From a bacterium (GTDB lineage: Bacteria; Elusimicrobiota; Elusimicrobia; Elusimicrobiales; UBA9959): a stretch of DNA of 64,000 nt. The notes below the pieces were generated by a model. That model worked only from the letters and a program-made list of their open reading frames with translations, had not been told where the DNA came from and did no database searches. Shown here in pieces: positions 3,905 to 33,115 of this stretch. Made by a program: the position numbers and the translations under genes. The stretch's first letter is position 1. Every line of letters starts with the position of its first letter. The stretch lies in NCBI GenBank assembly GCA_021789695.1, contig JAJYJH010000008.1:8595-72594 (forward strand), written 5' to 3'.

Positions 3905-3917
3905 CGCGGGGAGCGAC

Positions 3918-5534: not shown

Positions 5535-5543
5535 GAGACCGCG

Positions 5544-6389: not shown

Positions 6390-6406
6390 ACAGCGAGGAC
6401 AAAGAT

Positions 6407-6670
6407 ATGAAATGCACCAACTGCGGTCAGGAGAACCGCCCCAACTTCAGGTTCTGCAAGAAATGCGGCACGGACCTCACCCTTCCTCCGCCCTGGTTCC
6501 CCGGCTGGAGATGGCACCTCAAGGCGCTCAGCTGGATTTACCTCTCGGTAATAGCGGGATTCTTCGTCATCAGCTACCTGCTGCACCAGCTGAAGCCCCC
6601 CTACAACCAGCGCCAGATCCCGCCGGAGATGACGCCATGGCTGAACCCGCACAAGGTCCCGGCGCCCTGA
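6407..6670 (+). CDS. Zinc-ribbon membrane protein
   Basis: MKCTNCGQENRPNFRFCKKCG (CxxC-x11-CxxC) followed by one TM helix. GAGGA lies upstream, and the stop overlaps the kdsD ATG. Confidence 0.5.
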   Translation: MKCTNCGQENRPNFRFCKKCGTDLTLPPPWFPGWRWHLKALSWIYLSVIAGFFVISYLLHQLKPPYNQRQIPPEMTPWLNPHKVPAP

Positions 6671-20710: not shown

Positions 20711-21463
20711 ATGAGGACGGCTTCCAGAAAACTCGTCGCGCTGGCCAGGGCGGAATGGAGACTGCGCCAGCAGAGCACCTTTCTCGGCTTCCTGTGGACG
20801 CTGCTCAATCCGGCGCTCATGTTCGCCGTGCTCTACGGGCTGTTCGTGAAATGGCTCGGAAGGGCGCAGGAAGGGTACGCCGTATTCCTGCTGATCGGCA
20901 TAGTGGAGTGGAATTTCTTCGCCACGGCCAGCACCTACGCCCTTTCCAGCCTGCTGCGGCGCGGAGCGCTGCTCAAGAACTACCCGCTGGCGCTGGAGGT
21001 GCCGGTCCTGGCCTCGGTACTGAGCGTCTATTTTTCGCACCTGCTCGAGTTGGCGGCTCTCGCCGGCTTACTCTCCGTCTTTCTGTCCCCGCCTTCAGGC
21101 TCGTGGCTGTGGCTGCTGCCGGTGGACGCCGCCTACCTGTTACTGACCGCCGGCGCCGGCCTGCTGCTGGCCGGGGCCTTCGTCTTCTTCTCGGACATGG
21201 AGCGTATCTGGAACATACTGCTCACCGCCGGCTTCTTCCTTACACCGGTCTTTTACCCGCTCGCCGTGATCGCCCCTGATAAACGCAGGCTGCTGGCGCT
21301 GAACCCGCTCACCTCTATAATAGAGGCGGCCCGCGCGGCCTTTTCTGGCGCATCCCCAGAGCCGGAGCGGCTGGCCGGGGCCTGGCTCTGGGGCGCCGCC
21401 GTCCTCGCCGGCGGCTTTCTTTTCATCAGGCTCAAGCGCGGCCCCATGGCTGACAGCCTATGA
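20711..21463 (+). CDS. ABC-2 type polysaccharide export permease (Wzm/TagG-like)
   Basis: FLGFLWTLLNPALMF signature region and six TM helices. Confidence 0.75.
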   Translation: MRTASRKLVALARAEWRLRQQSTFLGFLWTLLNPALMFAVLYGLFVKWLGRAQEGYAVFLLIGIVEWNFFATASTYALSSLLRRGALLKNYPLALEVPVLASVLSVYFSHLLELAALAGLLSVFLSPPSGSWLWLLPVDAAYLLLTAGAGLLLAGAFVFFSDMERIWNILLTAGFFLTPVFYPLAVIAPDKRRLLALNPLTSIIEAARAAFSGASPEPERLAGAWLWGAAVLAGGFLFIRLKRGPMADSL

Positions 21464-23037
21464 GCGGCCTTTCCGTTTCCGGAGTGGCAAAAGCCTACCG
21501 CGTGGAGCTTCCGCGCGAGGACGCGCTATCATCCCTTGTGCGCTTCTTCAGCGGGCGCTCTCCCTCGCGCCCTTTCCTCGCGCTGGATGGAATCTCGTTC
21601 GAGCTCGCACCCGGAAAGGCGCTGGCTCTGCGGGGGCACAACGGCTCCGGCAAGACCACGCTGCTGAAGATTCTGGCAGGCATAACGGCGCCGACCTCCG
21701 GTTTTGTCTCTTTCTCGGGCAAAAGGGCCTGCCTTCTGGGCTTCGCCTCGATACTGCAGGACCGCCTCAGCGTAAAGGAGAACGCACGGCTTTGCGCCAT
21801 TTTTTTTGAGTTGCCGGGGGACCCCGCCGAGAACGCGGAGAGGATAATGGCCGCGGCGGGGCTGGAGCATCTGCGCAACGCGCGCGCTGGAGAGCTCTCC
21901 TCGGGCATGCGGCTGCGGCTGCCCTTCATGGCGGCCCTCTCGTCCGGGGCGGACCTCTTCCTGCTGGACGAGACGCTGGCCGTTGGCGATGCCGATTTCA
22001 GGCGCGAATGTCTAGCCAGGCTGGCCGGGCTAAAGCGCTCCGGGGCCATGCTGGTATTCGCTACCCACGACGACGCGCTGGCCATGGCGCTGGCCGACGA
22101 GGCACTGCTGCTGGAAGCCGGCAGGCCGCTTTACCTGGGGCCTGCGCACGGTATGCCGGGCGCGGCGCAACCAGCCGAAGGAGCCCTCGCGCGCGCTCTC
22201 GCCCGGTTCGCCATCCTTTTCGCCAGGCTCCGCTCTGAAGGGTTCGAGCTGCGCGAGGCGCCGCCGGCTTCCGACGAGGACCTGCTGCTCGTCCACACTC
22301 CGGTCTGGCTGGCCAGGCTGAAGGCCAACGATCTCTCTCCAGACGAAGAGCGCCTGCTGCTGCTCCCTTCGTCGCGCACGCTCCTGCCGCGTGCCTGGCG
22401 CATGGCCGGCGGTACGCTGGCCGCGGCCAGAAGGGCCCTGGCCTCCGGGCTTGGCGTATATCCGCCCGGAGGAGGGCACCATGCCTTCCCGGACCGCGGG
22501 GCCGGTTTCTCCGCGGTCAACGACATAGCCATAGCCGCGCGCCGCCTGCTAAAGGACGGCCTTGTTCGCCGCCCGGCCGTGATAGATCTGGACGCCCACC
22601 AGGGCAACGGCACCGCTTTCATCTTTCCTTTGGGAGAGGTCGCCACCTTTTCCGCTCACCGGGCCGGCGGCTACCCCATTAACAGGCACCGCTCGACGCT
22701 GGACGTGGAGCTCCCCCCGGGCGCCGGCGACGCAGACTATCTGGCCGCCGTGGAGAAAGGCCTAGGAGATTTTCTGGCCGCCTCCGCTCCGGACTTCGTT
22801 TTCGCGCTCTGCTCAGGGGACCCCTACGAAAAAGACCCGCTGGGCGGGCTGAAACTCTCCAGGAACGGCCTGCGGGGGCGCGACGAGCTCTTGTTCCGCC
22901 TGCTGAAGGAAGTGCCGGTCTGCCTTCTGCTCGGGGCCTCCTACTCACCACCCGAGGAGGCGGCTGAAATAGACCTGGCCGCCGTCAAAGCGGCGTTTTC
23001 GGCCCGTCCTTCGGCCGAGCGCGTGATAGACGTCTGA
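21460..23037 (+). CDS. Wzt/TagH-like ABC ATPase fused to an HDAC-family (arginase/deacetylase fold) domain
   Basis: N-terminal GHNGSGKTTLLK, LSSGMRLRL and LFLLDETLAVGD. C-terminal PPGGGHHAFPDRGAGFSAVNDIA, VIDLDAHQGNGT and SGDPYEKDPLGGLKLS. One uninterrupted ORF. Confidence 0.8.
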   Translation: MSGLSVSGVAKAYRVELPREDALSSLVRFFSGRSPSRPFLALDGISFELAPGKALALRGHNGSGKTTLLKILAGITAPTSGFVSFSGKRACLLGFASILQDRLSVKENARLCAIFFELPGDPAENAERIMAAAGLEHLRNARAGELSSGMRLRLPFMAALSSGADLFLLDETLAVGDADFRRECLARLAGLKRSGAMLVFATHDDALAMALADEALLLEAGRPLYLGPAHGMPGAAQPAEGALARALARFAILFARLRSEGFELREAPPASDEDLLLVHTPVWLARLKANDLSPDEERLLLLPSSRTLLPRAWRMAGGTLAAARRALASGLGVYPPGGGHHAFPDRGAGFSAVNDIAIAARRLLKDGLVRRPAVIDLDAHQGNGTAFIFPLGEVATFSAHRAGGYPINRHRSTLDVELPPGAGDADYLAAVEKGLGDFLAASAPDFVFALCSGDPYEKDPLGGLKLSRNGLRGRDELLFRLLKEVPVCLLLGASYSPPEEAAEIDLAAVKAAFSARPSAERVIDV

Positions 23038-23083: not shown

Positions 23084-23923
23084 TCAGCGCTGGAACTCGT
23101 AGGAATAGAGGATATAGAGCAACGCCCGGACCGCGAAAGCCGGGGTCATGAAGGATTCCGTGCCGGAGGCGTTTTTCAGCGCCGCCCGGGCCGCCCAGTA
23201 GGAGGCCGTCGGACTAGTAAGGTCGCGGGTCAGGCGTAGCCTCCAGCCGGAGCCGGCGGCCCCGTTCAGGTACTCCTCCCGTGAATGTATCCGCGTGACG
23301 TAGGCCTTATCCGCCAACGTGGCGTACCTGCGTCCGAGGCGGTGCGCCGAATTTCGCGTCCAGGCTATTACTACCAGCCTGGCCCCCGGCCTTGCCACGC
23401 GGGCCGTTTCGCGGAAGAAAGCTGGCAGGGCGGGCACGTGTTCGGTGGACTCGCAGGCCCAGACCAGGTCGAAGGAACCGCGCCCGAAGGGCAGGTCAAG
23501 CATGGAGGCCTTAGAAAAACGCACACGTCCGGAGAGACCACGCGCCCTGGCGGCGGCCCTGGCGGCCGAGGCCTGATAGCCGGATAGAGTAACGCCGCGC
23601 ACCGTCAGGGCCGGATACCTCTCCGCCAGCAGCAGGCTAGATCCGCCGCGGCCGCACCCGGCGTCCAGCAGACTGGCGCCTGGACGCGGCCTGCCCAGGT
23701 ACCTGAAGCCCAACTTTGCAAGCGCCGTCTCGGAATCGTGTATCATCCTTTCCGCCCCGGCGGGAGCGGCCTTGGCGAAGCGCCGCAGGAAGGAGACCCT
23801 GTCGGCTACCAGCCCGTTGTGATGGTGTATTATCCCGTCTGAGGCCAGACGCCAGTTAAAGTCCTTGCGCTTGGAGTCGTAGAGGGCCGCCACCTTTGCC
23901 AGCCAAGGGTCCCCGGCCCTCAC
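23084..23923 (-). CDS. Class I SAM methyltransferase resembling prenyl-diphosphate (GPP 2-C-) methyltransferases
   Basis: LLDAGCGRGGSS SAM motif, N-terminal IIHHHNG, then VRGVTLS, MLDLPF and IHSREEYL. From memory this pattern matches the GPP C-methyltransferase family. Confidence 0.65.
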   Translation of the reverse strand: MRAGDPWLAKVAALYDSKRKDFNWRLASDGIIHHHNGLVADRVSFLRRFAKAAPAGAERMIHDSETALAKLGFRYLGRPRPGASLLDAGCGRGGSSLLLAERYPALTVRGVTLSGYQASAARAAARARGLSGRVRFSKASMLDLPFGRGSFDLVWACESTEHVPALPAFFRETARVARPGARLVVIAWTRNSAHRLGRRYATLADKAYVTRIHSREEYLNGAAGSGWRLRLTRDLTSPTASYWAARAALKNASGTESFMTPAFAVRALLYILYSYEFQR

Positions 23924-24435
23924 GCAGCCCCCTTCAGCGCGGCAGCGAAGGCAAGAGCCAGGCGCCGCGCCGAGGCGGATGGGCAGAAGCGCTCACGCGG
24001 CCTCGGCAGCGCCATGGCGGCTGGCATCGCAGCCATCTCTCCGGAGAACGCGGCGTGCAGGGCCAGGGCCGCCCGGGCCGGCAGCCGCGGGCCGGAAAAG
24101 AGGAAGAAGCGGGAATAGTTCCCCAGAGCCATCGCGAAATTGAGGGTCATCGGCATATCCATGCCGGGAAGCGGCCCGCCGCCGCGCGCATAGGCCGCGG
24201 CAATCTCCTGGGAGGCCTGCCAGAGACGCAGCGAAATCACTAGACGGCGGCGCAGTGACGCCGGGAGGGAACGCGGAATATCTTTTTCAGCGGTAACCGG
24301 CCTGCGGCAAAGCCGCGAGGCCGGCCCGAAGAAGGCGGCGCGGGCGGCGTGTGGGTCACAGGAAAAAGGCAGGGGTCCCAGGACGGCCCTGTGCCAGGCC
24401 GGCACCGAGCGCTTAACCGGAAAAATGGCCCTCAT
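23920..24435 (-). CDS. Hypothetical protein
   Basis: ATGA overlaps at both ends tie it into the operon. No recognisable motif. Confidence 0.45.
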   Translation of the reverse strand: MRAIFPVKRSVPAWHRAVLGPLPFSCDPHAARAAFFGPASRLCRRPVTAEKDIPRSLPASLRRRLVISLRLWQASQEIAAAYARGGGPLPGMDMPMTLNFAMALGNYSRFFLFSGPRLPARAALALHAAFSGEMAAMPAAMALPRPRERFCPSASARRLALAFAAALKGAA

Positions 24436-25142
24436 CCGCCGAAGGCCTCCCGCACCGAGGCCAGCCTGGCGGCGCTCACCGAGCGGGAACGGTCGGAGCC
24501 GAAACAGACGGCGCCGCGCAGGCCGACTATGTCGGGCCCCAGCCCCCGCAGTACCGGCAGCATCCGCACTCCTACGGAGCCGGCGAGGGCGGTCTTAAGG
24601 CCGGCGGCGCGGGCCAGGCGCAAAAAGCGCGCCAGCTCCGGGCGCGTCATGTTGTCGAAAAGGGAACGCCCGTCCTTAAGGGCTGTGTCCAGCATGACGG
24701 CGGCGGCTCCGGCCCTCTTAGCCGCACGCACCAGGGGCCAGGGCGCCAGCCCGCCGAAACGGCGCCAGTCCGCATAGCCGGCTATGACCGGCAGCGCGCG
24801 TGGCGCCGCCGAGCGTACGCCTTTGACCACGGCGCTGGCCAGCTCGAAGGCCCTGGCCTCGGTCCTGACGCCGTAGAGCCCGGCCTTGACGTAATCCGCG
24901 CCTATCGAGGCCGCGGCGTAGGCCGCAAGCGCTGCTGTGCCCGGCTTGAAATCCAGGTCGCCTATCGCGGCGCTGAACTCTACGGGATAACGCCGAAGCC
25001 GGCGGACTATCCCGGCCAGCACCCAGGGGAAATTGGCCCCCAGCGAGCCTTCATTGACGTTCTTGAGGTCCAGGATATCGGCCCCGCCGCGGGCCACGAG
25101 CAGGGCCTCGCGCAGGTCCACAGGGCTGACTAGAAGTTTCAT
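24432..25142 (-). CDS. (5-formylfuran-3-yl)methyl phosphate synthase homologue (MfnB / DUF556 family)
   Basis: MKLLVSP start, GSLGANFPWV, AAIGDLDFKPGTA, GADYVKAGLYG, AGYAD, MLDTALKDGRSLFD, ALAGS and IVGLRGAVC. An alternative ATG lies at 25160. Confidence 0.7.
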   Translation of the reverse strand: MKLLVSPVDLREALLVARGGADILDLKNVNEGSLGANFPWVLAGIVRRLRRYPVEFSAAIGDLDFKPGTAALAAYAAASIGADYVKAGLYGVRTEARAFELASAVVKGVRSAAPRALPVIAGYADWRRFGGLAPWPLVRAAKRAGAAAVMLDTALKDGRSLFDNMTRPELARFLRLARAAGLKTALAGSVGVRMLPVLRGLGPDIVGLRGAVCFGSDRSRSVSAARLASVREAFGG

Positions 25143-25143
25143 C

Positions 25144-26199
25144 TTATTTGTCGCGTTCATCGGCCATGTAATACGCCAGAGAGCGGAGCAGCGAAAGTTC
25201 CCGCAGGCGCAGGCGGCAGGAACCCAGTTCGCTGAGCGCCCTTCGGCGGAACACGTCTATCATGCGGCGGTTCTCCTCCACCGCGCCGCTCCGGCGGACT
25301 ATATCTATAACATTTTTAAGGGCCGCCATGGAAATGGACGCGTCCCCCAGCGCCGCTCCCAGCGCCGCCCGCTGCGCCGGGGCGGAAAAGCGCATGGCGG
25401 TAAGGTAGAGATACGTGTACCGTCCTGCGGTTATATCGTCGGCCAGCGGTTTTCCCCAGGCCTCGGAACGCGGGAAGAGGTTCAGCTCGTCGCCGTGCAG
25501 GTGATAGGCCATGCCGAGCCAGGAGCCGGCCGCCTCGAAGCGCGGCAGTTCCCGGCGGCCGCAGCCGCCAAGCAGCGCCCCTATCCTGAAGGGACCGGTG
25601 AAGGAGAGGAAACGGATACGGTCCCAGCTCATGGAGAGATACTCCTCCGCTGACGGCGCCCTGCGCCCCGCCGTCCACCAGAGTTCCACGGACTGCCCGT
25701 AACCGTAGGCGAAGATCTCCGAGGAGAACGTGCGCAGTATGTACTCCCGGCGCCAGTCCTCCAGCCGCAGGGACGGGGAAAGGAAAACGCGCCAAGCCCA
25801 GTTATAGGACGCCTGATACGCCAGGTAGGCGTTCTTCTCGCCGTAGAGCCTGTGCGCGGCAGGGCCCCCGCGGCGGAGGGCGGAGCCGTCTATTATGTCG
25901 TCGAAACTGACCGTGGAGGCCTCCATTAGTTCGATGGCGCCGAAGACCTCCTCGTAATCCGCCGGCGCCTTGCCGAAAGCCTCCAGCAGCAGGCGGGCTA
26001 TCAGCGGACGCAGCAGTTTTCCCGGTCGCTCAAGGTAAAGACGCGCGGGCGCGTTGATCCCGCGGCGGAGGGCGGCGGAGGCGGAGAGACCGGCCGCCCT
26101 GAGCCAGTCGGTAGGGAAGACGCGCGGGAAAGCCGCGCGCGAAGCCCGCAGCAGCTGCGGCAGCGCCGCGGCGTAATAGGCCGCCAGGGCGGGGGACAT
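25144..26199 (-). CDS. Polyprenyl synthase-family paralogue with a degenerate second Asp-rich motif
   Basis: RPGKLLRP, first motif FDDIID plus RRGGPAAH, and second motif HGDELN in place of DDxxD. Confidence 0.7.
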   Translation of the reverse strand: MSPALAAYYAAALPQLLRASRAAFPRVFPTDWLRAAGLSASAALRRGINAPARLYLERPGKLLRPLIARLLLEAFGKAPADYEEVFGAIELMEASTVSFDDIIDGSALRRGGPAAHRLYGEKNAYLAYQASYNWAWRVFLSPSLRLEDWRREYILRTFSSEIFAYGYGQSVELWWTAGRRAPSAEEYLSMSWDRIRFLSFTGPFRIGALLGGCGRRELPRFEAAGSWLGMAYHLHGDELNLFPRSEAWGKPLADDITAGRYTYLYLTAMRFSAPAQRAALGAALGDASISMAALKNVIDIVRRSGAVEENRRMIDVFRRRALSELGSCRLRLRELSLLRSLAYYMADERDK

Positions 26200-26237
26200 T
26201 CCGCCGCCCTGCCGCCGGAGATGGACGGGGCAGTTTT

Positions 26238-27269
26238 TCAAGACGCCCTCCCGGCGAGGCGGCGGACGAAAGCCTTTAGCGCCTCCCCGTAGCCGCCGTT
26301 CATGGCCGGAAGCAAGGCCCGCTCCAGCACCGCCATGGCGGAGCCTGTCCTCGCGGCCGCGGTGGAACGGCAATACGCCGCGGCACCGCTGGCGATCATC
26401 GCCTCCCGGGCACGGGTCACGTCCGCCTCCCGTGGCACGGTCCCGGGAGGCCGCGAATAAAGGCGGAGCAGGAAGGAACGGCCGACGGAGGAGGAGCGCC
26501 GCAGGGCGTGCCAGAGCAGCAGCGTGCGCTTGCCTTCCCGTATGTCGTTGCCCGGAGCTTTTCCGAAGCCGGTCCCGCCGTCGTTCTCCAGGTCCAGAAC
26601 GTCGTCCATGAGCTGAAAAGCGGCGCCGAGGTGCCGTCCAAAAACATTAATCGCACCGAAGAGGTCGTAACGTCCGGCGAGGACGGCGGCCAGCCTGCAC
26701 GGGCCCGTGGTGGTATAGGAGGACGTCTTCATGTCCGCCAGGCGGAAGTAAGCGCGCGGCGAAAATTCTCGCGGCGGCCTACCCCGCCAGACCAGCTCCA
26801 GGTGCTGTCCCTGGAGCGCGCGCCGGACAGCGGTATAAAACTCGCCGAATACCGGACCGAACTCCCGCGGCCCGAGCAGACAGTTGCCGTAGAGCATCTC
26901 CGGTATGTAGGTGGCTGTGAGGTCCAGCGCGTTGATAGCGGCCTCCTCGCCGCACAGGCGGTGGAGCGCCGGGCCGCCGCGTCTCGTCTCGGCGTGATCC
27001 ATAAGGTCGTCGCGGCCGAGACCCCAGTTCTCAAGAAGTTCGTAGGCCGCCGCGAGGCGGGAGGCCTTCCTGTAGCTCCCCCCGAGCCCTCCGGCGAACA
27101 GGCACAGCAGGACGGAGCGCAGCGCCTTGCCGCGGCGCCGCGGATAGGCCGTGATGCATCCGCGCAGGCCGGGGTCCATGCCCGCCGTCTTTTTCTCAAG
27201 CCAGCCGTCCATGACCGCGAAGACGTCCCGGCGCACTTTCACGGCATAGGCGTCAAGACTTATCGCCAT
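26238..27269 (-). CDS. Polyprenyl diphosphate synthase (canonical motifs)
   Basis: RDDLMD...RRGGPALH and FQLMDDVLDLE...GK...NDIREGKRT. GGGAGG Shine-Dalgarno. Confidence 0.8.
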   Translation of the reverse strand: MAISLDAYAVKVRRDVFAVMDGWLEKKTAGMDPGLRGCITAYPRRRGKALRSVLLCLFAGGLGGSYRKASRLAAAYELLENWGLGRDDLMDHAETRRGGPALHRLCGEEAAINALDLTATYIPEMLYGNCLLGPREFGPVFGEFYTAVRRALQGQHLELVWRGRPPREFSPRAYFRLADMKTSSYTTTGPCRLAAVLAGRYDLFGAINVFGRHLGAAFQLMDDVLDLENDGGTGFGKAPGNDIREGKRTLLLWHALRRSSSVGRSFLLRLYSRPPGTVPREADVTRAREAMIASGAAAYCRSTAAARTGSAMAVLERALLPAMNGGYGEALKAFVRRLAGRAS

Positions 27270-27873
27270 AAACCTCCCTCAGGGTCGAACCTAGAAAGCC
27301 GCGCGGAAGAAGAAGGGCGGACTCGGCCCGGGAGCGGCGCGCAGACCAACCGGCGCCGACGGCGAGCGCGGCCTCTCGGCAAGCGCGCGCGCCGCCTTCC
27401 CCCAGGCCCAGTTCCAGCGCGCGGAAAAAGAAGGCGGCCCGCAGGGCCCACCCCTCAGGAGAAACTTCTTTCGCCACGCCTGGGCGCAGCAGAGATCCGG
27501 AAATGGCAGCTCCGGCCTCCACGAAGAAACCCTCAAGAGCCTGGCGGCGTTCCGCCGGGAAGCAGCGCGCGGCCAGGCGCTCCGCCAACGAAACGGCCGA
27601 AAGCAGCAGCAGGATATCGCCCCCCCGCAGGGCGGCGGTTGCGCGCCTGCCGCAGGCCTCCCTGGACCTCAGCCATGGCTGCTGCGCAGCCGAGAGGGCG
27701 TCTGCGGAAGCCAGCAGCCGGGGCGGGACGCGCGTCCCAGGCCAGAGCAGCCTCACCGCCCTGCCAGCAGGGGTGCGCGCAAGGAGGAGCCGTGCCTCGG
27801 AAGAAGGCCATGGCCTTCCCGGCGGTCCGGCCAGGAGGGCCGCGGCAAGCTGGGCCACTGGGCCGCGCTTCAT
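27253..27873 (-). CDS. Hypothetical Ala/Leu-rich helical protein
   Basis: Operon-embedded, with overlaps at both ends. No motif recognised. Confidence 0.4.
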   Translation of the reverse strand: MKRGPVAQLAAALLAGPPGRPWPSSEARLLLARTPAGRAVRLLWPGTRVPPRLLASADALSAAQQPWLRSREACGRRATAALRGGDILLLLSAVSLAERLAARCFPAERRQALEGFFVEAGAAISGSLLRPGVAKEVSPEGWALRAAFFFRALELGLGEGGARACREAALAVGAGWSARRSRAESALLLPRGFLGSTLREVYGDKS

Positions 27874-28973
27874 TTCGTCCTCCGTGCCGAAAGATAAAGC
27901 GGCAGGCGCAAAAAAAGGGCGCGAGAAGCCCGCGGCAGGCTAAGCTCCGCGACGAGGCGCAGGGCGCGGGCATTGAGGGACGCGATAGAGGCTTCCGTTT
28001 CCTCCACCGCGCCGCAGTCGCGGGCCGCCCGGATGGCGCGCTGCAAGGCGCTGCGGGAAGGTTTCCCCGAAAGGACGGAATCCGCCGCGCGGGGGTCGTC
28101 CCGTTTCAGGCGAGCCAGAGCCGCCGAGGTCAGGAAGGTGGCTTTGCCGGCCAGAAAGTCGTCGCCGGGGAGTTTCCCCCAGGAAGGGTCTTCCGGAAAG
28201 AGGTTGAGCATATCGCCGCGCAGGTGATAGGCCGCGCCAAGGGTCTCTCCGAGAGCGCAGAACTCGGCCTGCCTGGCGCGCGGAAGGCCGGCGCAGACCG
28301 CCGCCGCGCCGAGCGGGCCGGCGAAGGAAAGGATCGAGATCCTGTCGCGCACGTTATCGAGATAGGCGGCCATGGTTACGGGCCCTTGAGCTTCGGCCAG
28401 GAGCGGTTCCGACAGGTGGCCGCGACAAGCCCTGAAATAATAGGAATTCATGAGCTCGTGAAGGTGTAGCCTCTGCCTGGACCCGAGGGGCAGCGCCGGG
28501 TGGTCCGGCACTCCCAGGCAGAGATGAAAGACGGCCATGGCGGCCGCGGCCGCCCGGGGGCCGTATACCAGCTGCGCCGCGCGGGCCCCGCGCCGGCGCG
28601 GAGAGGAGTCCAGTGCATCGTCGAGCATCACGGTGGCGGACTCCATCACCTCGAGCATCCACAGCAGGGGACGGAACTCTTCCGGGGCGCGCCCAGCCGC
28701 CTGCAGAGCCAGCATGGCCAGGTAAGGGCGAAGCAGCTTGCCCGGCCTGTCCAGATAATAGCGCAGCACCGACCAGTCCGTCCCCGCCAGCCCGGCGCGC
28801 CCTGGCCTGGCCAGAAGTTCCGGCACCGCGGAAAAGGAATACTCTGCCAAAGCGCCCCGGATGACCGGCAGACAGGCCCGGTAATGCCCGGCCAGTTCCG
28901 GCCCCATCTCGCCGGCCGCCTCCGGAGATGGTTCCCCCCAGCCCGGGCCGAAAGGCTTTGGACGCCCGGCCAT
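27870..28973 (-). CDS. Polyprenyl synthase-family paralogue with a degenerate second Asp-rich motif
   Basis: RPGKLLRP, MLDDALD...RRRGARAA, and RGDMLN in place of DDxxD. Clear paralogue of 25144-26199. Start taken at 28973 (a 1-nt overlap with the upstream stop). Confidence 0.7.
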   Translation of the reverse strand: MAGRPKPFGPGWGEPSPEAAGEMGPELAGHYRACLPVIRGALAEYSFSAVPELLARPGRAGLAGTDWSVLRYYLDRPGKLLRPYLAMLALQAAGRAPEEFRPLLWMLEVMESATVMLDDALDSSPRRRGARAAQLVYGPRAAAAAMAVFHLCLGVPDHPALPLGSRQRLHLHELMNSYYFRACRGHLSEPLLAEAQGPVTMAAYLDNVRDRISILSFAGPLGAAAVCAGLPRARQAEFCALGETLGAAYHLRGDMLNLFPEDPSWGKLPGDDFLAGKATFLTSAALARLKRDDPRAADSVLSGKPSRSALQRAIRAARDCGAVEETEASIASLNARALRLVAELSLPRASRALFLRLPLYLSARRTK

Positions 28974-29797
28974 CAGGATACCAGCCAGCCCGCCAGCACG
29001 CAAAGCAGCATCAGGTTGGCGGAAAGAAGATAAAGCTCGTAGAACCAGCGCGGCGGGCGGAAGGAGGCGGCCGCCGCGGCGGCCATCGTCCAGAGGGTCC
29101 AGGCGGAATCGGCCTTCTCCCCGAGAAGAAGATGCCGGAGCAGGACCGGCGCCAGCAGCAAGGCCAGCGCCGCGGCTGTAGCCCTCAGACCGAGAAGTAC
29201 GGGCACGCTGCGCACGCCGGCTTCGGCGTCCCCGCTGTAGTCGCGCATATCCAGGATCACACTAAGGGCCAGGATGAACGGGATAAGCATCCATGTCGCA
29301 CGGATCAGGGCCGCAGCGGCCGTCCACGAGAAGGCGTGGTGCAGCAGGAACGGGGCAAGAACCCCGACGCCCCAGAACGCGGCCAGGTTCACCAGGGTCT
29401 TGAGCGCCGGCACCCTCTTTATAAGAGTTACGCCGTTGAAAGGGACCGCGTACAGCGGCACGAAAACCACGGAGAGGACCAAAAGCGGGCGGAAGGGGGT
29501 AAGCAGCAGGATATAGAGCGAGTCGGCCAGCAGCAGCGCGCCGAAGAAGGCCGGCGGGGGCGGGGAAATCCTCAGTTCCCCGGCCGGCACGTTGACGGAA
29601 TCCTCTTTCTGCGAGAACAGGCGGTCCAGCAGATAAGCCAGCTGGATCATGACGGCCAGCGCGCCGCCGGCCGCGATGGCGGCGGCCTTCAGCCCCCCCA
29701 TGGCCGAGGCCATATTGAGAAAAAGCAGGAAAGCCGCCAGCGGGAGCTGGACCCGGAACGAGGAAACGAACCCGTAGACAGCGGAGAATGCCCTCAT
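28973..29797 (-). CDS. UbiA-superfamily-like membrane prenyltransferase (divergent first motif)
   Basis: Eight or nine TM helices. The second motif DMRDYSGDAEAGVRSVP fits DxxDxxxD-x3-G-x2-[ST]-x-P. The first motif YLLDRLFSQKEDSVN is degenerate. Confidence 0.55.
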   Translation of the reverse strand: MRAFSAVYGFVSSFRVQLPLAAFLLFLNMASAMGGLKAAAIAAGGALAVMIQLAYLLDRLFSQKEDSVNVPAGELRISPPPPAFFGALLLADSLYILLLTPFRPLLVLSVVFVPLYAVPFNGVTLIKRVPALKTLVNLAAFWGVGVLAPFLLHHAFSWTAAAALIRATWMLIPFILALSVILDMRDYSGDAEAGVRSVPVLLGLRATAAALALLLAPVLLRHLLLGEKADSAWTLWTMAAAAAASFRPPRWFYELYLLSANLMLLCVLAGWLVS

Positions 29798-30807
29798 ATA
29801 AAAAAACGCGGCTTCTGGCCCCAGACTATGGTCTCGGGCTGCACCACCATGGTGACTTGCACTCCCGAAAAAACGGCCGCCAAGTCCGGGGCGCCGACGC
29901 CGCGGCGCAGAGCGAAGAAAGGCGCCGCCAGCAAGGCCTCCAAAGGGTTCAGGCGCCTGAGCCTTCCCAGATATCGTCCACGCCATCTGCGGCTCAGCTC
30001 CTGCGCTGCGGAAAAGAACTCCGGAGAATGGAAACGCCGGCCGCGCCCGGAGGACACTGCGAAGAACCATTTATTCTTCCCGGTGGAAGAGGACGGGAGC
30101 GTGGCGCAGAGGCGGAAGCCGGGGACCGCGCCGGAAAGGGCCGACAGCACGGCCCCGGCCCCGCACTCCGACTCCAGCAGTGCGGCCCGCTCCGGGCCGG
30201 AAACGCTCTCGGGGGTCTTAAAGGCCACGAAAAGGACCAGGTCGGCAAGATCGGGCCTGGACAGGGCCCAGGAGTGGACCGCCGGCGCTCCGTCGAGGTT
30301 GCGCCTGGAGACGGTCATGTTGAAATAGCAGGAGCCTACTCCGGCGTCGCGCACCATCCCCCCGAGGCGCGCGCGCAGGGAATTGAGCGCGGCCTCGTCG
30401 GCTCCTTTCCAGCCCTCCCGGTCCTGCATGGAGTCCACGTGAAGACAGACCCCGGCTAGGCCCGCGGATTTAAGCGCCTTCAGGCGCGCCGGGGACAGCA
30501 GGGAACCGTTGGTATTTACGAAGGGGCGCAGTCCGGCTCTGGCCGCGTGCCTGACCGCCTCCTCGATATGCGGGTAGCACAACGGATCGCCTCCTGCGAA
30601 AGCCAGGACGTCCGTGCGCACCCCCGAGGCCACCGAGTCTATCTCGGCCAGGACTTCTGGCAAAGACCTGTGCTTACCCGGAAAATTGGAGGAAAAGCAG
30701 CCAGGGCAGTGCATATTGCACTCCTTCGTAGGCTCCAGCCAGGTAATTATAGTGTCGGCAAGAGTCCAAGGCAGGCGGTATGGCCGCGGCGTTGCGGATA
30801 AGGTCAT
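29794..30807 (-). CDS. Radical SAM protein
   Basis: ECNMHCPGCF (CX3CX2C), FAGGDPLCYP, and GGAGGA/GGAGAA Shine-Dalgarno. First gene of the operon. Confidence 0.75.
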   Translation of the reverse strand: MTLSATPRPYRLPWTLADTIITWLEPTKECNMHCPGCFSSNFPGKHRSLPEVLAEIDSVASGVRTDVLAFAGGDPLCYPHIEEAVRHAARAGLRPFVNTNGSLLSPARLKALKSAGLAGVCLHVDSMQDREGWKGADEAALNSLRARLGGMVRDAGVGSCYFNMTVSRRNLDGAPAVHSWALSRPDLADLVLFVAFKTPESVSGPERAALLESECGAGAVLSALSGAVPGFRLCATLPSSSTGKNKWFFAVSSGRGRRFHSPEFFSAAQELSRRWRGRYLGRLRRLNPLEALLAAPFFALRRGVGAPDLAAVFSGVQVTMVVQPETIVWGQKPRFFI

Positions 30808-30972: not shown

Positions 30973-31743
30973 TCAGGCGCGGCCTGGCCCGAGCAGCGTA
31001 CCCGGCCGGGACCGTCCGGCGAGAAAGGAAACGAGGCCCTCCGGGCGCCTGCCGTCGAGCACGAGGGCCCGCCCCCCTCCTCGCACTATCTCCAGCAGTT
31101 CGGCAGCCTTGCCGCGCATCCCCCCGCTTACGTCTCCCGGCTCCCGGGGACAGGCGCGGGAGAACGCCTCCAGGCCCGGCTCGTCCAGCTCCGGCAGCAC
31201 CGCGCCGGCGGCGTCCAGCAACCCCGGCGCGTCGGTGAAGAATACCGCCAGGCGCGGCCGCAGCAGCCCGCAGAGCCCGACGGCCAACGCGTCGCTGGAG
31301 ACCACTACGCCGCCCCCAGTCCCGTCGGGAAATATACCGCTGGAGACCACCGGCACGAGTCCTGACGCCAGCGGGGCCTCGATAGCAGAAGCATCCGCGG
31401 GCACGGGGCGCCCCCCCCTCAATAAAAAATACTCCGGCCCCGGCACACTTCCGACCACCAGCCCGGCCGAGCGCAGTTCCCGGAGAAATGCCAGATGAAG
31501 GCGCAGAAGGGAAGTATTGATGGCGTCTACGGGCGCCCCGCCCGGAGGTACCCTGCCGGACAGGTAGCCGTAGCGAAGGGCCGGAGGCTTGCCGAAGGAA
31601 CCGGTGCCGTGGACCAGCGCGAAAGGCTCGCGCAGTTCTGCCAGAGAGGCCGCCAGGCGCGAGGCGGCCGCCCGGTCAAAGACCGGAGACTCCCCTTTGC
31701 GGGTTATCACGCTGCCACCGGCTTTTATCACCAGCATCGCCAT
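30973..31743 (-). CDS. Isopentenyl phosphate kinase family (amino-acid-kinase fold) protein
   Basis: VIKAGGSVITRK, LVHGTGSFGK, LVPVVSSG, FFTDAPGLL and DVSGGMRGK, aligned by eye to archaeal IPK motifs. Confidence 0.65.
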   Translation of the reverse strand: MAMLVIKAGGSVITRKGESPVFDRAAASRLAASLAELREPFALVHGTGSFGKPPALRYGYLSGRVPPGGAPVDAINTSLLRLHLAFLRELRSAGLVVGSVPGPEYFLLRGGRPVPADASAIEAPLASGLVPVVSSGIFPDGTGGGVVVSSDALAVGLCGLLRPRLAVFFTDAPGLLDAAGAVLPELDEPGLEAFSRACPREPGDVSGGMRGKAAELLEIVRGGGRALVLDGRRPEGLVSFLAGRSRPGTLLGPGRA

Positions 31744-31761: not shown

Positions 31762-32814
31762 ATGAGCTCCGGAGCCAAAGACGGGAAGGGCGGGCCTGAG
31801 CCGGGGAAGCCGTCACCCCGCGCGCTGCTTGAGCTGGCCGCGCTTAAGGCCAGACTCCTGAAACTGCCTGAAGGCGCCCCCGGCACGCTCTATATCGCGC
31901 TCACCTACCGCTGCGATCTCTCCTGCCGTCACTGCAAGTACCGTTCCTCGGCGCCGGGCCCGGATATGCCGTTCGGAGACCTGAGGCGGCTGCTGGAAAA
32001 CGCCGCCGCCTCCGGCATACCCCGCGTCGCCTTTTTCGGCGGAGAACCGCTACTCTACCCGCGCCTGGAACAGGCCGTGCGCCTGGCCTCGGGACTTGGG
32101 CTTTTTACGCAGCTGGACACCAACGGCCAGACGCTGGGCGCCCGGAGGGCCTTGGAACTTGCAGCCGCCGGGCTCTCCCTTGCCACTATCAGCCTGCACT
32201 CCGCCGATGAGGCCGGGCACGACGCCCTAAGCGGACTTGGCTCATTCCGCAAGGCCATCGCGGCGGTTTCGGCGGCCCTGCGCGCCGGGCTCTTCGTCCA
32301 CGTCTCCTCTTGTTTCTTCTCGGCCGGGCTTTCCTCCGGAGAACCGGGCCGGCTGGCGGCCTTCGCCCGCGGCCTGGGCGCCCACGGCGCAAGGGCGCTG
32401 CTCTATTCCCCGCCGGAGGGCGGTTCCGCGGACCTGCCGCGCCGCTTGTCAAAGGCCTTGGCCGCGGCCGACCTGGACGGCTTCTCGCGCGGCTGCGTCC
32501 GCTCCGGCCGGCGAGCCTGCGCCGCAGCCGCCGGGGACATACTTTTCACGGACGCAGGATTGAACGTGAAGAGCTGCCCCTACTCCGTCCGGTCGCTGGG
32601 AAAGGCCACGGCCGGGCTGCGCCGCTTCTTCGGCGGCGAGCGCGCTCCCGCCGGTCTCTTCCCCTGCCATTCCCCACGCCCATCCTGCCGCGCAGCTAGC
32701 GCAGGCCGTAATTTTGCTAAAATAATCAGATGCGAGAGGCTAGGAAGAACAAAGCCATATCCGAATCCGTCAGCTGGCGCAAGACCGGTGAAGAGGCCGT
32801 CCTCCTTGACCTAG
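31762..32814 (+). CDS. Radical SAM peptide-maturase-like enzyme with a partial SPASM/twitch region
   Basis: YRCDLSCRHCKY (CX3CX2C), FFGGEPLLYP, and C-terminal C-x12-G-x5-C (ACAAAAGDILFTDAGLNVKSC). The last ~30 codons run across an AT-rich spacer into the PqqD gene. Confidence 0.75.
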   Translation: MSSGAKDGKGGPEPGKPSPRALLELAALKARLLKLPEGAPGTLYIALTYRCDLSCRHCKYRSSAPGPDMPFGDLRRLLENAAASGIPRVAFFGGEPLLYPRLEQAVRLASGLGLFTQLDTNGQTLGARRALELAAAGLSLATISLHSADEAGHDALSGLGSFRKAIAAVSAALRAGLFVHVSSCFFSAGLSSGEPGRLAAFARGLGAHGARALLYSPPEGGSADLPRRLSKALAAADLDGFSRGCVRSGRRACAAAAGDILFTDAGLNVKSCPYSVRSLGKATAGLRRFFGGERAPAGLFPCHSPRPSCRAASAGRNFAKIIRCERLGRTKPYPNPSAGARPVKRPSSLT

Positions 32815-33014
32815 AAACCTCGGAGTATTACTCCCTTAACGACACCGGCACGTTCATATGGGAGCGTTTCGCCGCCGGCAAGCCGCTCTCCTCGATAACC
32901 GAAGAACTGGCCGCCGAATACGGCATATCCGCCGGCCAGGCCGAGCGCGACGCCGAGGCCTTTCTCAAGGACCTATCCGTCCTGAAGATCCTGAACGAGG
33001 GGGACGCTAAATGA
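32730..33014 (+). CDS. PqqD-family peptide chaperone (stand-alone RRE)
   Basis: EAVLLDLETSEYYSLNDTGTFIWE followed by a winged-helix-like tail. 94 aa. Confidence 0.8.
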   Translation: MREARKNKAISESVSWRKTGEEAVLLDLETSEYYSLNDTGTFIWERFAAGKPLSSITEELAAEYGISAGQAERDAEAFLKDLSVLKILNEGDAK

Positions 33015-33115
33015 AACGCCAGAAGACCAGCCAGCCCAAACAGAAAAAATACCGCAAACCGCAGATAAAATCCCACGGCAAGCTAAGTGAAGTCGCCTCG
33101 GCGTTCAAGCCCTAA
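33011..33115 (+). CDS. Candidate RiPP precursor peptide, 34 aa (MKRQKTSQPKQKKYRKPQIKSHGKLSEVASAFKP)
   Basis: Not in the ORF track (below 60 aa). The ATG overlaps the PqqD stop (ATGA), and GAGGGGG lies 7 nt upstream. The Y14-P17-I19-G23 spacing equals the RRE-recognised leader motif YxxPxL-x3-G. Locally A-rich. Confidence 0.55.
   Translation: MKRQKTSQPKQKKYRKPQIKSHGKLSEVASAFKP

What the first reader, a model, noticed from the sequence alone, without database searches (positions are those of the whole stretch)
25144..28973. Three polyprenyl-synthase paralogues in one operon, two with the second Asp-rich motif changed to GDxxN
Seen in sequence:
- All three keep the first motif (FDDIID, RDDLMD, LDDALD) and the downstream RRG.
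- Only 26238-27269 keeps the second DDxxD (MDDVLD).
- The two paralogues carry HGDELNLFP and RGDMLNLFP at the homologous position.
- They share RPGKLLRP, E-x-ME, WGK and GAVEE blocks with each other, so they are a distinct conserved subfamily rather than decayed copies.

Established knowledge:
- The second Asp-rich motif helps bind the Mg-diphosphate of the substrate.
- Synthase homologues with altered motifs include non-catalytic subunits of heteromeric synthases. ComQ, the peptide prenyltransferase, is a polyprenyl-synthase homologue.

Inference: these paralogues may accept a non-isoprenoid diphosphate or transfer prenyl groups to a non-IPP acceptor.
Basis: partly seen in the sequence, partly recalled or inferred. 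Interest (0 to 1): 0.6.

Follow-up and report, generated by a model that had tools for sequence, protein, structure and literature searches.

The report
Furan-linked variant prenyl synthase clade
Two of three prenyl-chain synthase genes in this Elusimicrobia operon belong to an undescribed, strictly conserved enzyme clade with a rebuilt active site, which always sits next to a degenerate partner subunit and usually next to a furan-making enzyme, suggesting an unknown furan-isoprenoid lipid pathway.

Summary
Three PF00348 genes lie in one minus-strand operon. B (26238-27269) is an ordinary GGPP-synthase-like enzyme. A (25144-26199) and C (27870-28973) keep the first Asp-rich motif, but GDxxN sits exactly where the second DDxxD belongs.

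A and C are not decayed copies. They belong to a single clade of about 15-20 representatives at 50% identity among 1.84 billion proteins.
- Signature: R-x-x-x-LSF (replacing KT) and Y-H-L-x-G-D-x-L-N/D (replacing F-Q-x-x-D-D-x-x-D).
- Kept: GKxxR, RRG and the C-terminal RxK, the residues that hold the second substrate's diphosphate.

New findings:
- Each clade member is adjacent or fused to a motif-less IDS-like partner, here 23920-24435. That partner, not A or C, is the non-catalytic subunit.
- A is always followed by MfnB, the furan-phosphate synthase.
- Distant members in unrelated loci recur with MfnB, an IPK-like kinase, UbiA and lipid exporters.

ComQ carries the same N/GDxxx pseudo-motif but is unrelated and lacks the diphosphate-binding residues.

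Best reading (confidence about 0.4, inferred): heteromeric prenyltransferases that join an isoprenoid chain to the MfnB-derived furanylmethyl (di)phosphate. No biochemistry exists.

The parts
25144..26199 (-). IDS paralogue A, GD clade, subclade A. FARM FDDIID; R194-x-x-x-LSF replaces KT; AYHLHGDELN replaces FQxxDDxxD; C-terminal ERDK.
   Evidence: AF2 model pLDDT 93.4; Foldseek top hits are GGPPS and long-chain IDS with TM about 0.8.
26238..27269 (-). IDS paralogue B, a canonical trans-IDS. Both DDxxD motifs, KT and FQ are present; Trp at -5 before FARM as in Thermus GGPPS.
   Evidence: (1wmw E=8e-43).
27870..28973 (-). IDS paralogue C, GD clade, subclade C. LDDALD; DRISILSF; AYHLRGDMLN; C-terminal RRTK.
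27253..27873 (-). 206-aa ORF between C and B. It occupies the position that the IDS-like partner of subclade C holds in other loci. Homology was not detectable.
   Evidence: 81% identical homologue only in L009. hhalign to the partner family not significant.
23920..24435 (-). 171-aa degenerate IDS-like partner, equivalent to the N-terminal half of the fold, with no Asp-rich motifs. Probable non-catalytic subunit paired with A.
   Evidence: 37 homologues, all hypothetical Elusimicrobia proteins. hhalign to long partners Prob 95.7%, E=1e-8. Long partners vs GD-IDS Prob 97.4%, E=1e-11. AF2 pLDDT 85.8, all-helical; weak Foldseek hits almost all GGPPS/FPPS. Fused to the IDS in P0093.
24432..25160 (-). 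MfnB-type (5-formylfuran-3-yl)methyl phosphate (4-HFC-P) synthase. Overlaps the 3' end of A by 17 nt.
   Evidence: Pfam PF04476 E=3.5e-71. NCBIfam NF002575 277 bits, cut-off 304. MJ1099 structure 4rc1 E=6e-61, with DILDLKN, YVKAG and MLDTALKDG aligned.
23084..23923 (-). Prenyl-diphosphate C-methyltransferase homologue (GPPMT, BezA, C6-FPP MT family).
   Evidence: NF041943 GPPMT 140 bits, full length, below the cut-off of 400. PDB 4f84 E=3e-32, 3vc1 8e-31, BezA 7fbh, C6-FPP MT 9tb4.
28973..30070 (-). Divergent UbiA-family membrane prenyltransferase. The ORF as listed is 365 aa; homologues are 264-283 aa, so the start is probably near 29824.
   Evidence: PF01040 E=1e-10. Present in most full-length syntenic loci.
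29794..30807 (-). Radical SAM enzyme (rSAM_b).
   Evidence: PF04055 E=7e-16. Present in some syntenic loci.
30973..31743 (-). Isopentenyl-phosphate-kinase-like amino-acid-kinase-fold enzyme, first gene of the operon.
   Evidence: NF040647 IPPK_Arch 92.8 bits, cut-off 120. PDB IPK 7lnt E=5e-23. 39% identical homologue next to MfnB in the unrelated locus L021, and MfnB-AAK pairs in L022-24.
33011..33115 (+). 34-aa Lys-rich peptide gene MKRQKTSQPKQKKYRKPQIKSHGKLSEVASAFKP in the divergent neighbouring operon. ATGA overlap with the PqqD stop.
   Evidence: The C-terminus is invariant in 13 loci.
31762..33014 (+). Radical SAM (31762-32814) plus PqqD-like peptide chaperone (32730-33014).
33087..35086 (+). 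FabD-like acyltransferase (33087-34070; the start probably lies after the peptide gene) and HprK-related P-loop protein (34067-35086).
20711..23037 (+). ABC-2 permease (20711-21463) and Wzt-like ATPase fused to a histone-deacetylase-like domain (21460-23037), convergent with the methyltransferase.
   Evidence: Conserved in all syntenic loci.

Best explanation
B is an ordinary short-chain (probably GGPP or FPP) synthase.

A and C are catalytic subunits of a previously undescribed clade of trans-IDS-fold enzymes, which I call the GD clade. Each is paired 1:1 with a degenerate, motif-less IDS-like partner. For A the partner is the 171-aa protein at 23920-24435. For C it is presumably the 206-aa ORF at 27253-27873.

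The clade keeps the FARM, which binds the Mg-diphosphate of a prenyl donor. It also keeps every basic residue that holds the diphosphate of the second substrate: GKxxR, RRG, WGK and the C-terminal RxK. It has rebuilt the residues that hold the third Mg2+ and surround the reacting carbons: DDxxD to GDxxN, FQ to YH, KT to R(I/V).

Most likely these heteromers do not carry out the standard IPP condensation. Instead they join an isoprenoid chain to the furanylmethyl phosphate made by the co-transcribed MfnB, after conversion to the diphosphate by the IPK-like kinase where one is present. The furan-CH2-OPP unit would act as an isoprene-unit mimic in one of two ways:
- It sits in the IPP site as the nucleophile, with ring C2 attacking the prenyl cation and the invariant His as a possible base.
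- It sits in the allylic site as a starter that is extended with IPP.

The product would then be C-methylated by the GPPMT-like enzyme, transferred by UbiA and exported by the ABC-2 system as an envelope lipid.

Shown: homology, motif conservation, partner homology and fusion, gene linkage. Inferred: substrates, heteromer formation and all chemistry.
For: - The GDxxN segment is homologous to SARM.
- AYHLxGDxLN, R194..LSF, GK..R, DDxxDxSxxRRG and the C-terminal R-x-K are invariant or nearly so in 29 sequences down to 31% identity. In the wider clade Y-H-x-x-G-D-x-L is invariant.
- A profile search of 1.84e9 representatives shows a sharp switch from YHxxGD to canonical FQxxDDxLN at about 265 bits. 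An NJ tree gives one GD clade.
- The partner family is adjacent to every GD-IDS and is fused to it in P0093. It is a degenerate IDS homologue (Prob 97.4%, E=1e-11).
- MfnB lies immediately downstream of A, usually overlapping it, in all Elusimicrobia loci. The exception is the L001/L002 type, where two genes intervene.
- A minimal trio MfnB-partner-GD-IDS occurs in the unrelated locus L018.
- L021 carries MfnB-AAK-UbiD-Aldedh-ADH-UbiA-GD-IDS-partner-MMPL. L022-24 carry MfnB-AAK pairs about 5 kb from partner-GD-IDS.
- MfnB is 6e-61 to MJ1099 with its catalytic motifs aligned.
- Precedent for first-Asp loss when the acceptor is not IPP: ComQ requires NDxxx or GDxxx (PMC5331326), and chrysanthemyl-PP synthase has NDxxD (own knowledge; mentioned).
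- Precedent for a furan-3-ylmethyl diphosphate as an SN1 electrophile: MfnE/MfnF in methanofuran synthesis (own knowledge).
Against: - There is no biochemical or expression data, and everything rests on uncultured MAGs and metagenome contigs.
- The kept IPP-site residues, the small residues at -5/-4 before FARM (as in long-chain synthases) and a partner subunit (as in HepS/HepT and HexA/HexB) fit ordinary medium- or long-chain elongation equally well.
- UbiA could be the enzyme that couples furan and chain.
- The IPK-like kinase is absent from about half of the Elusimicrobia loci and from L018.
- Two distant loci (L025, L026) show no MfnB within 8 kb.
- The formyl group of 4-HFC-P would disfavour both ionisation and nucleophilic attack. 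The window has no obvious enzyme to remove it, whereas L021 has Aldedh plus UbiD.
- Heteromer formation was not modelled.
Confidence: 0.4

Rival explanations
1. A and C, each with its partner, are heteromeric medium- or long-chain polyprenyl diphosphate synthases that still condense IPP, using an unusual catalytic motif. They only make the tail. UbiA attaches it to the MfnB-derived furan head group, following ubiquinone-like logic.
For: - All IPP-diphosphate ligands and the C-terminal RxK tail are kept.
- Residues at -5/-4 before FARM are S/A-T, as in the E. coli octaprenyl-PP synthase alignment.
- The partner subunit recalls HexA/HexB and HepS/HepT, and 3aqb_B and 9kp1_B are among the hits.
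- UbiA is present in most loci, and L021 has UbiA plus UbiD plus an aldehyde dehydrogenase, as in aromatic-acid prenylation followed by decarboxylation.
Against: - Every characterised chain-elongating trans-IDS keeps the first SARM Asp, and its mutation costs orders of magnitude in kcat (own knowledge).
- FQ and KT are replaced as well, and the replacements are invariant, which suggests changed chemistry rather than drift.
- L018 has MfnB-partner-GD-IDS without UbiA nearby.
- Canonical B-type synthases are present in many loci and could make the tail.
Confidence: 0.25
2. A and C are ComQ-like peptide prenyltransferases that lipidate the conserved 34-aa peptide encoded in the divergent neighbouring operon.
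For: - ComQ needs a GDxxx or NDxxx pseudo-SARM, and the register matches in hhalign.
- A strictly conserved peptide with PqqD and a radical SAM enzyme lies 4 kb away in all full-length Elusimicrobia loci.
Against: - The GD clade is not related to ComQ beyond the shared fold (hhalign E=0.1, Prob 0.6%).
- ComQ lacks GKxxR, RRG and RxK, whereas the GD clade keeps them.
- The peptide has no Trp.
- Distant GD-clade loci (L018-L026) and L006 lack the peptide module but keep the partner, with MfnB in L006, L018 and L021-24.
Confidence: 0.1
3. A and C are elongation enzymes specialised for methylated building blocks, such as homo-IPP or methyl-prenyl-PP, made by the GPPMT-like methyltransferase, as in longestin-type pathways.
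For: A GPPMT/BezA-family methyltransferase lies in the same operon in all Elusimicrobia loci. B12-radical SAM enzymes occur in several loci.
Against: - This methyltransferase is absent from L018 and L021 and from the fetched parts of L019 and L020. L023 and L025 carry only an unrelated Methyltransf_24 protein.
- The partner is the constant companion of the clade and MfnB its most frequent one, not the methyltransferase.
Confidence: 0.1
4. A and C act like terpene synthases. They ionise a prenyl diphosphate and quench or cyclise it without a second substrate.
For: FARM is kept and SARM altered, as in some IDS-derived terpene synthases (own knowledge).
Against: The complete set of second-substrate diphosphate ligands and the closing C-terminal tail are invariant. 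That would be unnecessary for a single-substrate enzyme.
Confidence: 0.07
5. A and C are non-catalytic regulatory subunits of a heteromeric synthase whose catalytic subunit is B.
Against: - Loci L001, L005, L016 and L017 have A and C but no B. Other loci have B and A but no C.
- FARM, RRG, GKxxR and RxK are invariant.
- A different, truly motif-less IDS-like family is the obvious non-catalytic partner.
Confidence: 0.03

Closest known systems
Canonical trans-isoprenyl diphosphate synthases (PF00348; e.g. Thermus GGPPS 1wmw, E. coli IspB 5ze6)
   Same: Same fold (TM about 0.8). Same FARM, GKxxR, RRG, WGK/DD-x-x-G and C-terminal RxK. Paralogue B is a regular member.
   Different: In A and C the first SARM Asp is Gly, FQ is YH, and the KT Lys-Thr is Arg-Ile/Val. 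All of these are invariant in the clade. A and C are always paired with a degenerate IDS-like partner and are linked to MfnB.
ComQ / PalQ tryptophan prenyltransferases of Bacillus and Paenibacillus
   Same: IDS fold, FARM kept, pseudo-SARM N/GDxxx in the same register, and a ribosomal peptide gene nearby.
   Different: No specific sequence relationship (hhalign E=0.1). ComQ lacks the IPP-diphosphate ligands that the GD clade keeps. The local peptide has no Trp. Distant clade members lack any peptide module.
Heteromeric medium-chain prenyl diphosphate synthases (HexA/HexB, HepS/HepT) and plant GPPS small subunits / OsGRP
   Same: A catalytic IDS plus a smaller helical, motif-less IDS-like partner encoded next to it.
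   Different: In known systems the catalytic subunit keeps both DDxxD motifs. Here it does not. The partner family has no detectable sequence match to solved small subunits.
Chrysanthemyl diphosphate synthase (irregular coupling, NDxxD)
   Same: Replacement of the first SARM Asp in an IDS that puts a non-IPP diphosphate in the second site.
   Different: It is a plant FPPS derivative with Asn rather than Gly, no partner subunit and no furan link.
Methanofuran biosynthesis MfnB-MfnE-MfnF
   Same: MfnB homologue (52% identity range, E=6e-61). A kinase that could make the furanylmethyl diphosphate. A diphosphate-displacing coupling enzyme.
   Different: No MfnA, C, D or F in the window. The kinase has the IPK fold, not the adenylate-kinase fold. 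The candidate coupling enzyme is an IDS-fold protein, and the context is lipid synthesis and export.
Benzastatin-type meroterpenoid logic (BezA prenyl-PP C-methyltransferase plus UbiA-type prenyltransferase plus aromatic acceptor)
   Same: A GPPMT/BezA-family methyltransferase, a UbiA enzyme and a small aromatic unit in one cluster.
   Different: The aromatic unit would be a furan phosphate. Extra GD-clade IDS enzymes are present. Radical SAM enzymes, an ABC-2 exporter and a peptide module are attached.

Membership tests
trans-isoprenyl diphosphate synthase (polyprenyl_synt, PF00348) | All-helical class I isoprenoid synthase fold and a Pfam match above threshold | tested here: met
   (123, 146 and 103 bits against a cut-off of 27). 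AF2 pLDDT 93.4 with Foldseek TM about 0.8 to GGPPS and long-chain IDS.
trans-isoprenyl diphosphate synthase (polyprenyl_synt, PF00348) | First Asp-rich motif DDxxD followed by RRG | tested here: met
   FDDIID, RDDLMD and LDDALD, each followed by RRG.
trans-isoprenyl diphosphate synthase (polyprenyl_synt, PF00348) | Second Asp-rich motif DDxxD/N with the first Asp, preceded by FQ, and the KT motif | tested here: not met
   Met by B only. A and C have YHLxGDxLN and R(I)xxLSF, invariant in the clade.
trans-isoprenyl diphosphate synthase (polyprenyl_synt, PF00348) | Chain-elongation activity with IPP | not testable with these tools
   The IPP-diphosphate ligands GKxxR, RRG and C-terminal RxK are conserved, but activity needs an assay.
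ComQ family peptide tryptophan prenyltransferase | Pseudo-SARM NDxxx or GDxxx with FARM kept | tested here: met
   Literature criterion. GD is in the same register as ComQ (S/x)(G/N)D in hhalign.
ComQ family peptide tryptophan prenyltransferase | Specific sequence relationship to ComQ | tested here: not met
   Authentic ComQ sequences were retrieved and aligned. The profile-profile comparison gave E=0.1, Prob 0.6%. The NCBIfam hits for A and C were all isoprenyl diphosphate synthase models and included no ComQ-named family.
ComQ family peptide tryptophan prenyltransferase | Adjacent ComX-like precursor with a Trp acceptor | tested here: not met
   The conserved peptide has no Trp and is absent from distant clade loci.
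Non-catalytic small subunit of heteromeric prenyl diphosphate synthases | Loss of catalytic motifs and obligate pairing with a catalytic IDS | tested here: not met
   A and C keep FARM and all basic ligands, and they occur without B in several loci. The separate partner family (23920-24435) does fit this description.
MfnB, 4-HFC-P synthase (neighbour gene 24432-25160) | Sequence membership and catalytic Asp25, Lys27, Lys85 and Asp151 of MJ1099 | tested here: met
   PF04476 240 bits. 4rc1 E=6e-61 with DILDLKN, YVKAG and MLDTA aligned. The residue roles are from my own knowledge. The NCBIfam equivalog score of 277 is just under the cut-off of 304.
Prenyl diphosphate C-methyltransferase (GPPMT / BezA family; neighbour gene 23084-23923) | Full-length similarity to GPPMT, including the N-terminal HHH-x-G region | tested here: inconclusive
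   4f84 E=3e-32 over residues 5-273 with IIHHHNG aligned to LYHHHYG. The NCBIfam GPPMT score of 140 is far below the equivalog cut-off of 400. It is a family member, with substrate unknown.

The most novel reading that the evidence does not exclude
MfnB-derived furanylmethyl diphosphate is a non-isoprenoid C5-like building block. Dedicated heteromeric IDS-fold enzymes (GD clade plus degenerate partner) splice it into polyprenyl chains. This would define a new class of furan-isoprenoid hybrid envelope lipids in Elusimicrobia and other uncultured bacteria, a second biological use of the methanofuran furan pathway, and a de novo (non-oxidative) route to furan-bearing terpenoid-like lipids.
Probability: 0.3. 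Interest if true: 0.85.

Novelty: new variant of a known kind. Interest (0 to 1): 0.66.

Why it matters
If the reading holds, it adds a new reaction type to one of the best-studied enzyme folds in isoprenoid biochemistry. It shows that the archaeal cofactor enzyme MfnB has been recruited for lipid synthesis in bacteria. It also gives a sequence signature, YHLxGDxL(N/D) plus an adjacent degenerate IDS-like gene, for mining such pathways.

It would provide a second, independent case after ComQ that replacing the first SARM Asp by Gly or Asn marks trans-IDS enzymes that have given up IPP condensation.

Even if the enzymes only make an ordinary tail, the conserved 25-kb Elusimicrobia locus is an uncharacterised envelope or natural-product pathway worth expressing. 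It combines a peptide with radical SAM and PqqD, a furan synthase, five IDS-fold genes, a prenyl-PP methyltransferase, UbiA and an ABC-deacetylase exporter.

Tried and rejected
- **ComQ membership.** I retrieved authentic ComQ proteins with a remembered B. subtilis sequence (99-100% match). The profile comparison showed only fold-level similarity, so membership was rejected.
- **Non-catalytic subunit idea for A and C.** Rejected on locus composition and on conservation of the ligand residues.
- **Homology of the 206-aa ORF (27253-27873).** No Pfam or NCBIfam hit, and hhalign to the partner family was not significant. Left open.
- **Context of the fusion proteins.** P0093 and P0097, the latter in the canonical sister clade, lie on contigs too short or without DNA. 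I therefore could not test whether MfnB linkage is specific to the GD motif.
- **Literature.** Searches for MfnB or 4-HFC-P together with polyprenyl, prenyltransferase, UbiA, UbiD or gene cluster found nothing relevant.
- **First structure and representative-search submissions.** I repeated them with alignment A4.

Full report
**Observation**

The region holds three PF00348 genes on the minus strand: A at 25144-26199, B at 26238-27269 and C at 27870-28973 (E=1.8e-35, 2e-42 and 2e-29).
- A is listed as an ORF from TTG 26373. It is identical over 351 aa to a called database protein starting at ATG 26199.
- Motif coordinates were verified on the DNA. A has FDDIID and AYHLHGDELN. B has RDDLMD and AFQLMDDVLD. 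C has LDDALD and AYHLRGDMLN.
- HMMER alignments to solved GGPP and octaprenyl-PP synthases place HGDELN and RGDMLN exactly on the second Asp-rich motif of those enzymes. The three-way alignment agrees.
- The terminal Asn is not unusual, since Thermus GGPPS has DDVLN. The diagnostic change is the first Asp to Gly.
- Gene overlaps of -4, -4, -17, +38, -17, -4 and -1 nt tie MT, partner, MfnB, A, B, the 206-aa ORF, C and UbiA into one operon.

**A and C form a real, sharply bounded clade**

- A word-index search found about 38 close relatives, all from metagenomes or MAGs, followed by a gap down to canonical synthases. The canonical ones all carry FQxxDDxL and KT.
- In 29 aligned sequences down to 31% identity the following are invariant: G60, K61, R64, E90, E93, D101, D104, S106, R109, R110, E172, R194, L198, S199, F200, A231, Y232, H233, L234, G236, D237, L239, N240, G249, K250, D255 and R349.
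- Mapped on canonical enzymes (residue roles from my own knowledge of FPPS structures), three sets of changes stand out.
  - F-Q-x-x-D-D-x-x-D has become Y-H-L-x-G-D-x-L-N.
  - The K-T that lies against the allylic cation has become R-(I/V).
  - The ligands of the second substrate's diphosphate (GKxxR, RRG, C-terminal RxK) and the FARM are untouched.
- A profile search of 1.84 billion representatives lists about 15-20 members at 50% identity. The switch to AFQxxDDxLN comes at about 265 bits.
- An NJ tree puts all YHxxGD sequences in one clade with three subclades: A-type, C-type and a distant group. A canonical sister clade lies next to it, and B sits far away near Thermus-type GGPPS.
- The AF2 model of A is confident (pLDDT 93.4) and is a standard trans-IDS fold.
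- In a scan of 185,579 species genomes, the nine matching loci came from Elusimicrobia MAGs or unclassified MAGs with the same locus.

**B is ordinary**

B has both motifs, KT and FQ, and matches Thermus GGPPS at 8e-43.

**Conserved locus**

All Elusimicrobia loci are syntenic. The gene order is:
- beta-helix protein and GT2;
- HprK-like protein, FabD-like acyltransferase, a 34-aa peptide, PqqD and a radical SAM enzyme, in a divergent operon;
- an optional IPK-like kinase and radical SAM enzyme, then UbiA, then C-type and/or B-type IDS, with a B12-radical SAM enzyme or an unknown ORF in some loci, then A-type IDS, MfnB, a 171-aa protein and a GPPMT-like methyltransferase;
- an ABC ATPase-deacetylase fusion, an ABC-2 permease, a radical SAM enzyme, GT4 and UvrA.

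Further points on the locus:
- A is directly followed by MfnB, usually overlapping it, in every locus except the L001/L002 type. There a 251-aa partner homologue and the methyltransferase intervene.
- Some loci have C and A but no B. Others have one or two B plus A but no C. This excludes the idea that A and C are obligate silent partners of B.
- MfnB is a close homologue of MJ1099 (E=6e-61) with its catalytic motifs aligned.
- The methyltransferase belongs to the prenyl-diphosphate C-methyltransferase family.
- The kinase is IPK-like.

**The hidden fourth and fifth IDS-fold genes**

- The 171-aa protein at 23920-24435 has 37 hypothetical homologues.
- It shares an N-terminal W...G..PF..D..A..FF motif with longer proteins of 250-414 aa. 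These proteins sit next to every GD-clade IDS examined, and one is fused to the IDS in P0093.
- Profile comparison shows that the short form is homologous to the long form (Prob 95.7%, E=1e-8).
- The long form is homologous to the GD-clade IDS itself over 217 collinear columns (Prob 97.4%, E=1e-11). It lacks FARM, GKxxR and RRG.
- The AF2 model of the 171-aa protein is all-helical (pLDDT 85.8). Its weak Foldseek hits are almost all GGPPS or FPPS.
- This family, not A or C, looks like a non-catalytic small subunit, and each GD-IDS has one.
- For C the position is taken by the 206-aa ORF at 27253-27873. Its homology could not be shown.

**Distant members keep the same companions in unrelated loci**

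- L018 carries MfnB, a 414-aa partner and GD-IDS, and nothing else from the Elusimicrobia locus.
- L021 carries MfnB, IPK-like kinase, UbiD, aldehyde dehydrogenase, Zn-ADH, DUF1302, UbiA, GD-IDS, partner, MMPL, a LolA-like protein and an amine oxidase. Its kinase is 39% identical to the window's.
- L019 carries a UbiD fragment (the identification is my own reading of the translated sequence), GD-IDS, partner, aldehyde dehydrogenase and MMPL.
- L022-24 carry a LolA-like protein and a MacB-type ABC system, then partner, GD-IDS and a pyruvyltransferase, and about 5 kb away a GT, AAK and MfnB.
- L025 and L026 carry MMPL, GT, MT, partner, GD-IDS and UbiA, but no MfnB within 8 kb.
- The partner is the constant theme and MfnB the most frequent companion. 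An IPK-like kinase often lies next to MfnB, along with UbiA, glycosyltransferases and lipid exporters.
- The peptide module is confined to the Elusimicrobia loci.

**Comparison with ComQ**

- A review states that ComQ keeps FARM and that its pseudo-SARM must be NDxxx or GDxxx. It adds that DDxxD is unsuitable for Trp prenylation (PMC5331326; see also PMC10853753).
- I retrieved authentic ComQ proteins and aligned them.
- hhalign against the GD clade puts GD on ComQ (G/N)D, but with E=0.1.
- ComQ lacks the GKxxR Arg, the RRG and the C-terminal RxK.
- So the GD clade shares a convergent motif change with ComQ but is not a member. Unlike ComQ, it still looks built to hold a phosphorylated second substrate.

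**Interpretation**

The pattern has four parts:
- the donor site (FARM) is kept;
- the diphosphate anchor of the second site is kept;
- the residues around the reacting carbons and the third metal are rebuilt and then frozen;
- there is tight linkage to an enzyme that makes a small phosphorylated furan, and to a kinase that could make its diphosphate.

This pattern is best explained by a prenyl-transfer reaction in which the furanylmethyl (di)phosphate replaces IPP as nucleophile or DMAPP as starter.

A furan-3-ylmethyl diphosphate has five carbons and an ionisable CH2-OPP conjugated to a C=C-O system. Methanofuran biosynthesis already uses such a diphosphate as an SN1 electrophile (own knowledge).

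In L021, aldehyde dehydrogenase plus UbiD could remove the deactivating formyl group. UbiD is the family of the furan-dicarboxylate decarboxylase HmfF (own knowledge). The window has no such pair, which is a weakness.

The main rival is that GD-IDS plus partner is simply an unusual heteromeric tail synthase and that UbiA does the coupling. The kept IPP site and the small residues before FARM fit that reading. The loss of an otherwise universal catalytic Asp and the UbiA-less trio in L018 argue against it.

All substrate assignments are inference.

**Verdict**

The finding is real and more interesting than a motif curiosity. It is a new, conserved, heteromeric-looking variant of a classic enzyme family, tied to a furan synthase, with no literature found. 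The function remains unproven.

Noticed in passing
window 33011-33115 (+), with 31762-35086: A 34-aa Lys-rich peptide gene overlaps the PqqD stop (ATGA). Its C-terminus HGK(I/L)S(E/D)VASAFKP is invariant in 13 loci, although the flanking enzymes are only about 40% identical. It is flanked by a radical SAM enzyme, PqqD, a FabD-like acyltransferase and an HprK-related P-loop protein. This looks like a RiPP- or cofactor-type module that matches no named family.
   Followed up: partly
window 23920-24435 (-): An unannotated 171-aa gene proved to be a degenerate homologue of the N-terminal half of the IDS fold. Longer versions (250-414 aa) accompany every GD-clade IDS, and they are fused to the IDS in P0093 and to a canonical IDS in P0097.
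   Followed up: yes
window 21460-23037 (+): A Wzt-like ABC ATPase is fused to a histone-deacetylase/acetylpolyamine-amidohydrolase-like domain. The fusion is conserved in all syntenic loci, next to an ABC-2 permease. Export coupled to deacetylation would be unusual.
   Followed up: no
window 27253-27873 (-): A 206-aa ORF lies between C and B. It has a homologue only in the closest relative (L009, 81% identity) and no detectable family. It sits where the partner of C-type IDS sits in other loci.
   Followed up: partly
window 35037-39591 (-): A GT2 whose best NCBIfam hit is the mycofactocin glycosyltransferase MftF (weak, 46 bits). It is followed by a 1183-aa right-handed beta-helix protein whose N-terminus weakly matches archaeal signal peptidase I. 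Both are conserved at the edge of the locus.
   Followed up: no
L021 1-15404: An unrelated metagenomic operon (GC 0.67) carries MfnB, IPK-like kinase, UbiD, aldehyde dehydrogenase, Zn-ADH, DUF1302, UbiA, GD-IDS, partner, MMPL, a LolA-like protein, an amine-oxidase-like flavoprotein and MarR. It looks like a complete furan-plus-isoprenoid lipid pathway with its exporter.
   Followed up: partly
L003 7558-8979; L006 6193-7560; L010, L012-14: A B12-binding radical SAM enzyme is inserted between IDS genes in many Elusimicrobia versions of the locus, but not in this window. This suggests variable C-methylation or other radical tailoring of the product.
   Followed up: no
window ~42000 onward: GC content drops from about 0.68 to about 0.60 at roughly 42 kb. 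Downstream lie type IV pilus/T2SS genes (PilC-, PilB-, secretin- and PilM-like, 45-53 kb) and two large O-antigen-ligase-like TPR proteins (55-60 kb).
   Followed up: no
window 3107-7650: KDO pathway genes (KdsB-like cytidylyltransferase, KdsA-like DAHP_synth_1, and an SIS+CBS arabinose-5-P isomerase-like gene) lie beside CTP synthase. This is consistent with a diderm Elusimicrobia chromosome.
   Followed up: no
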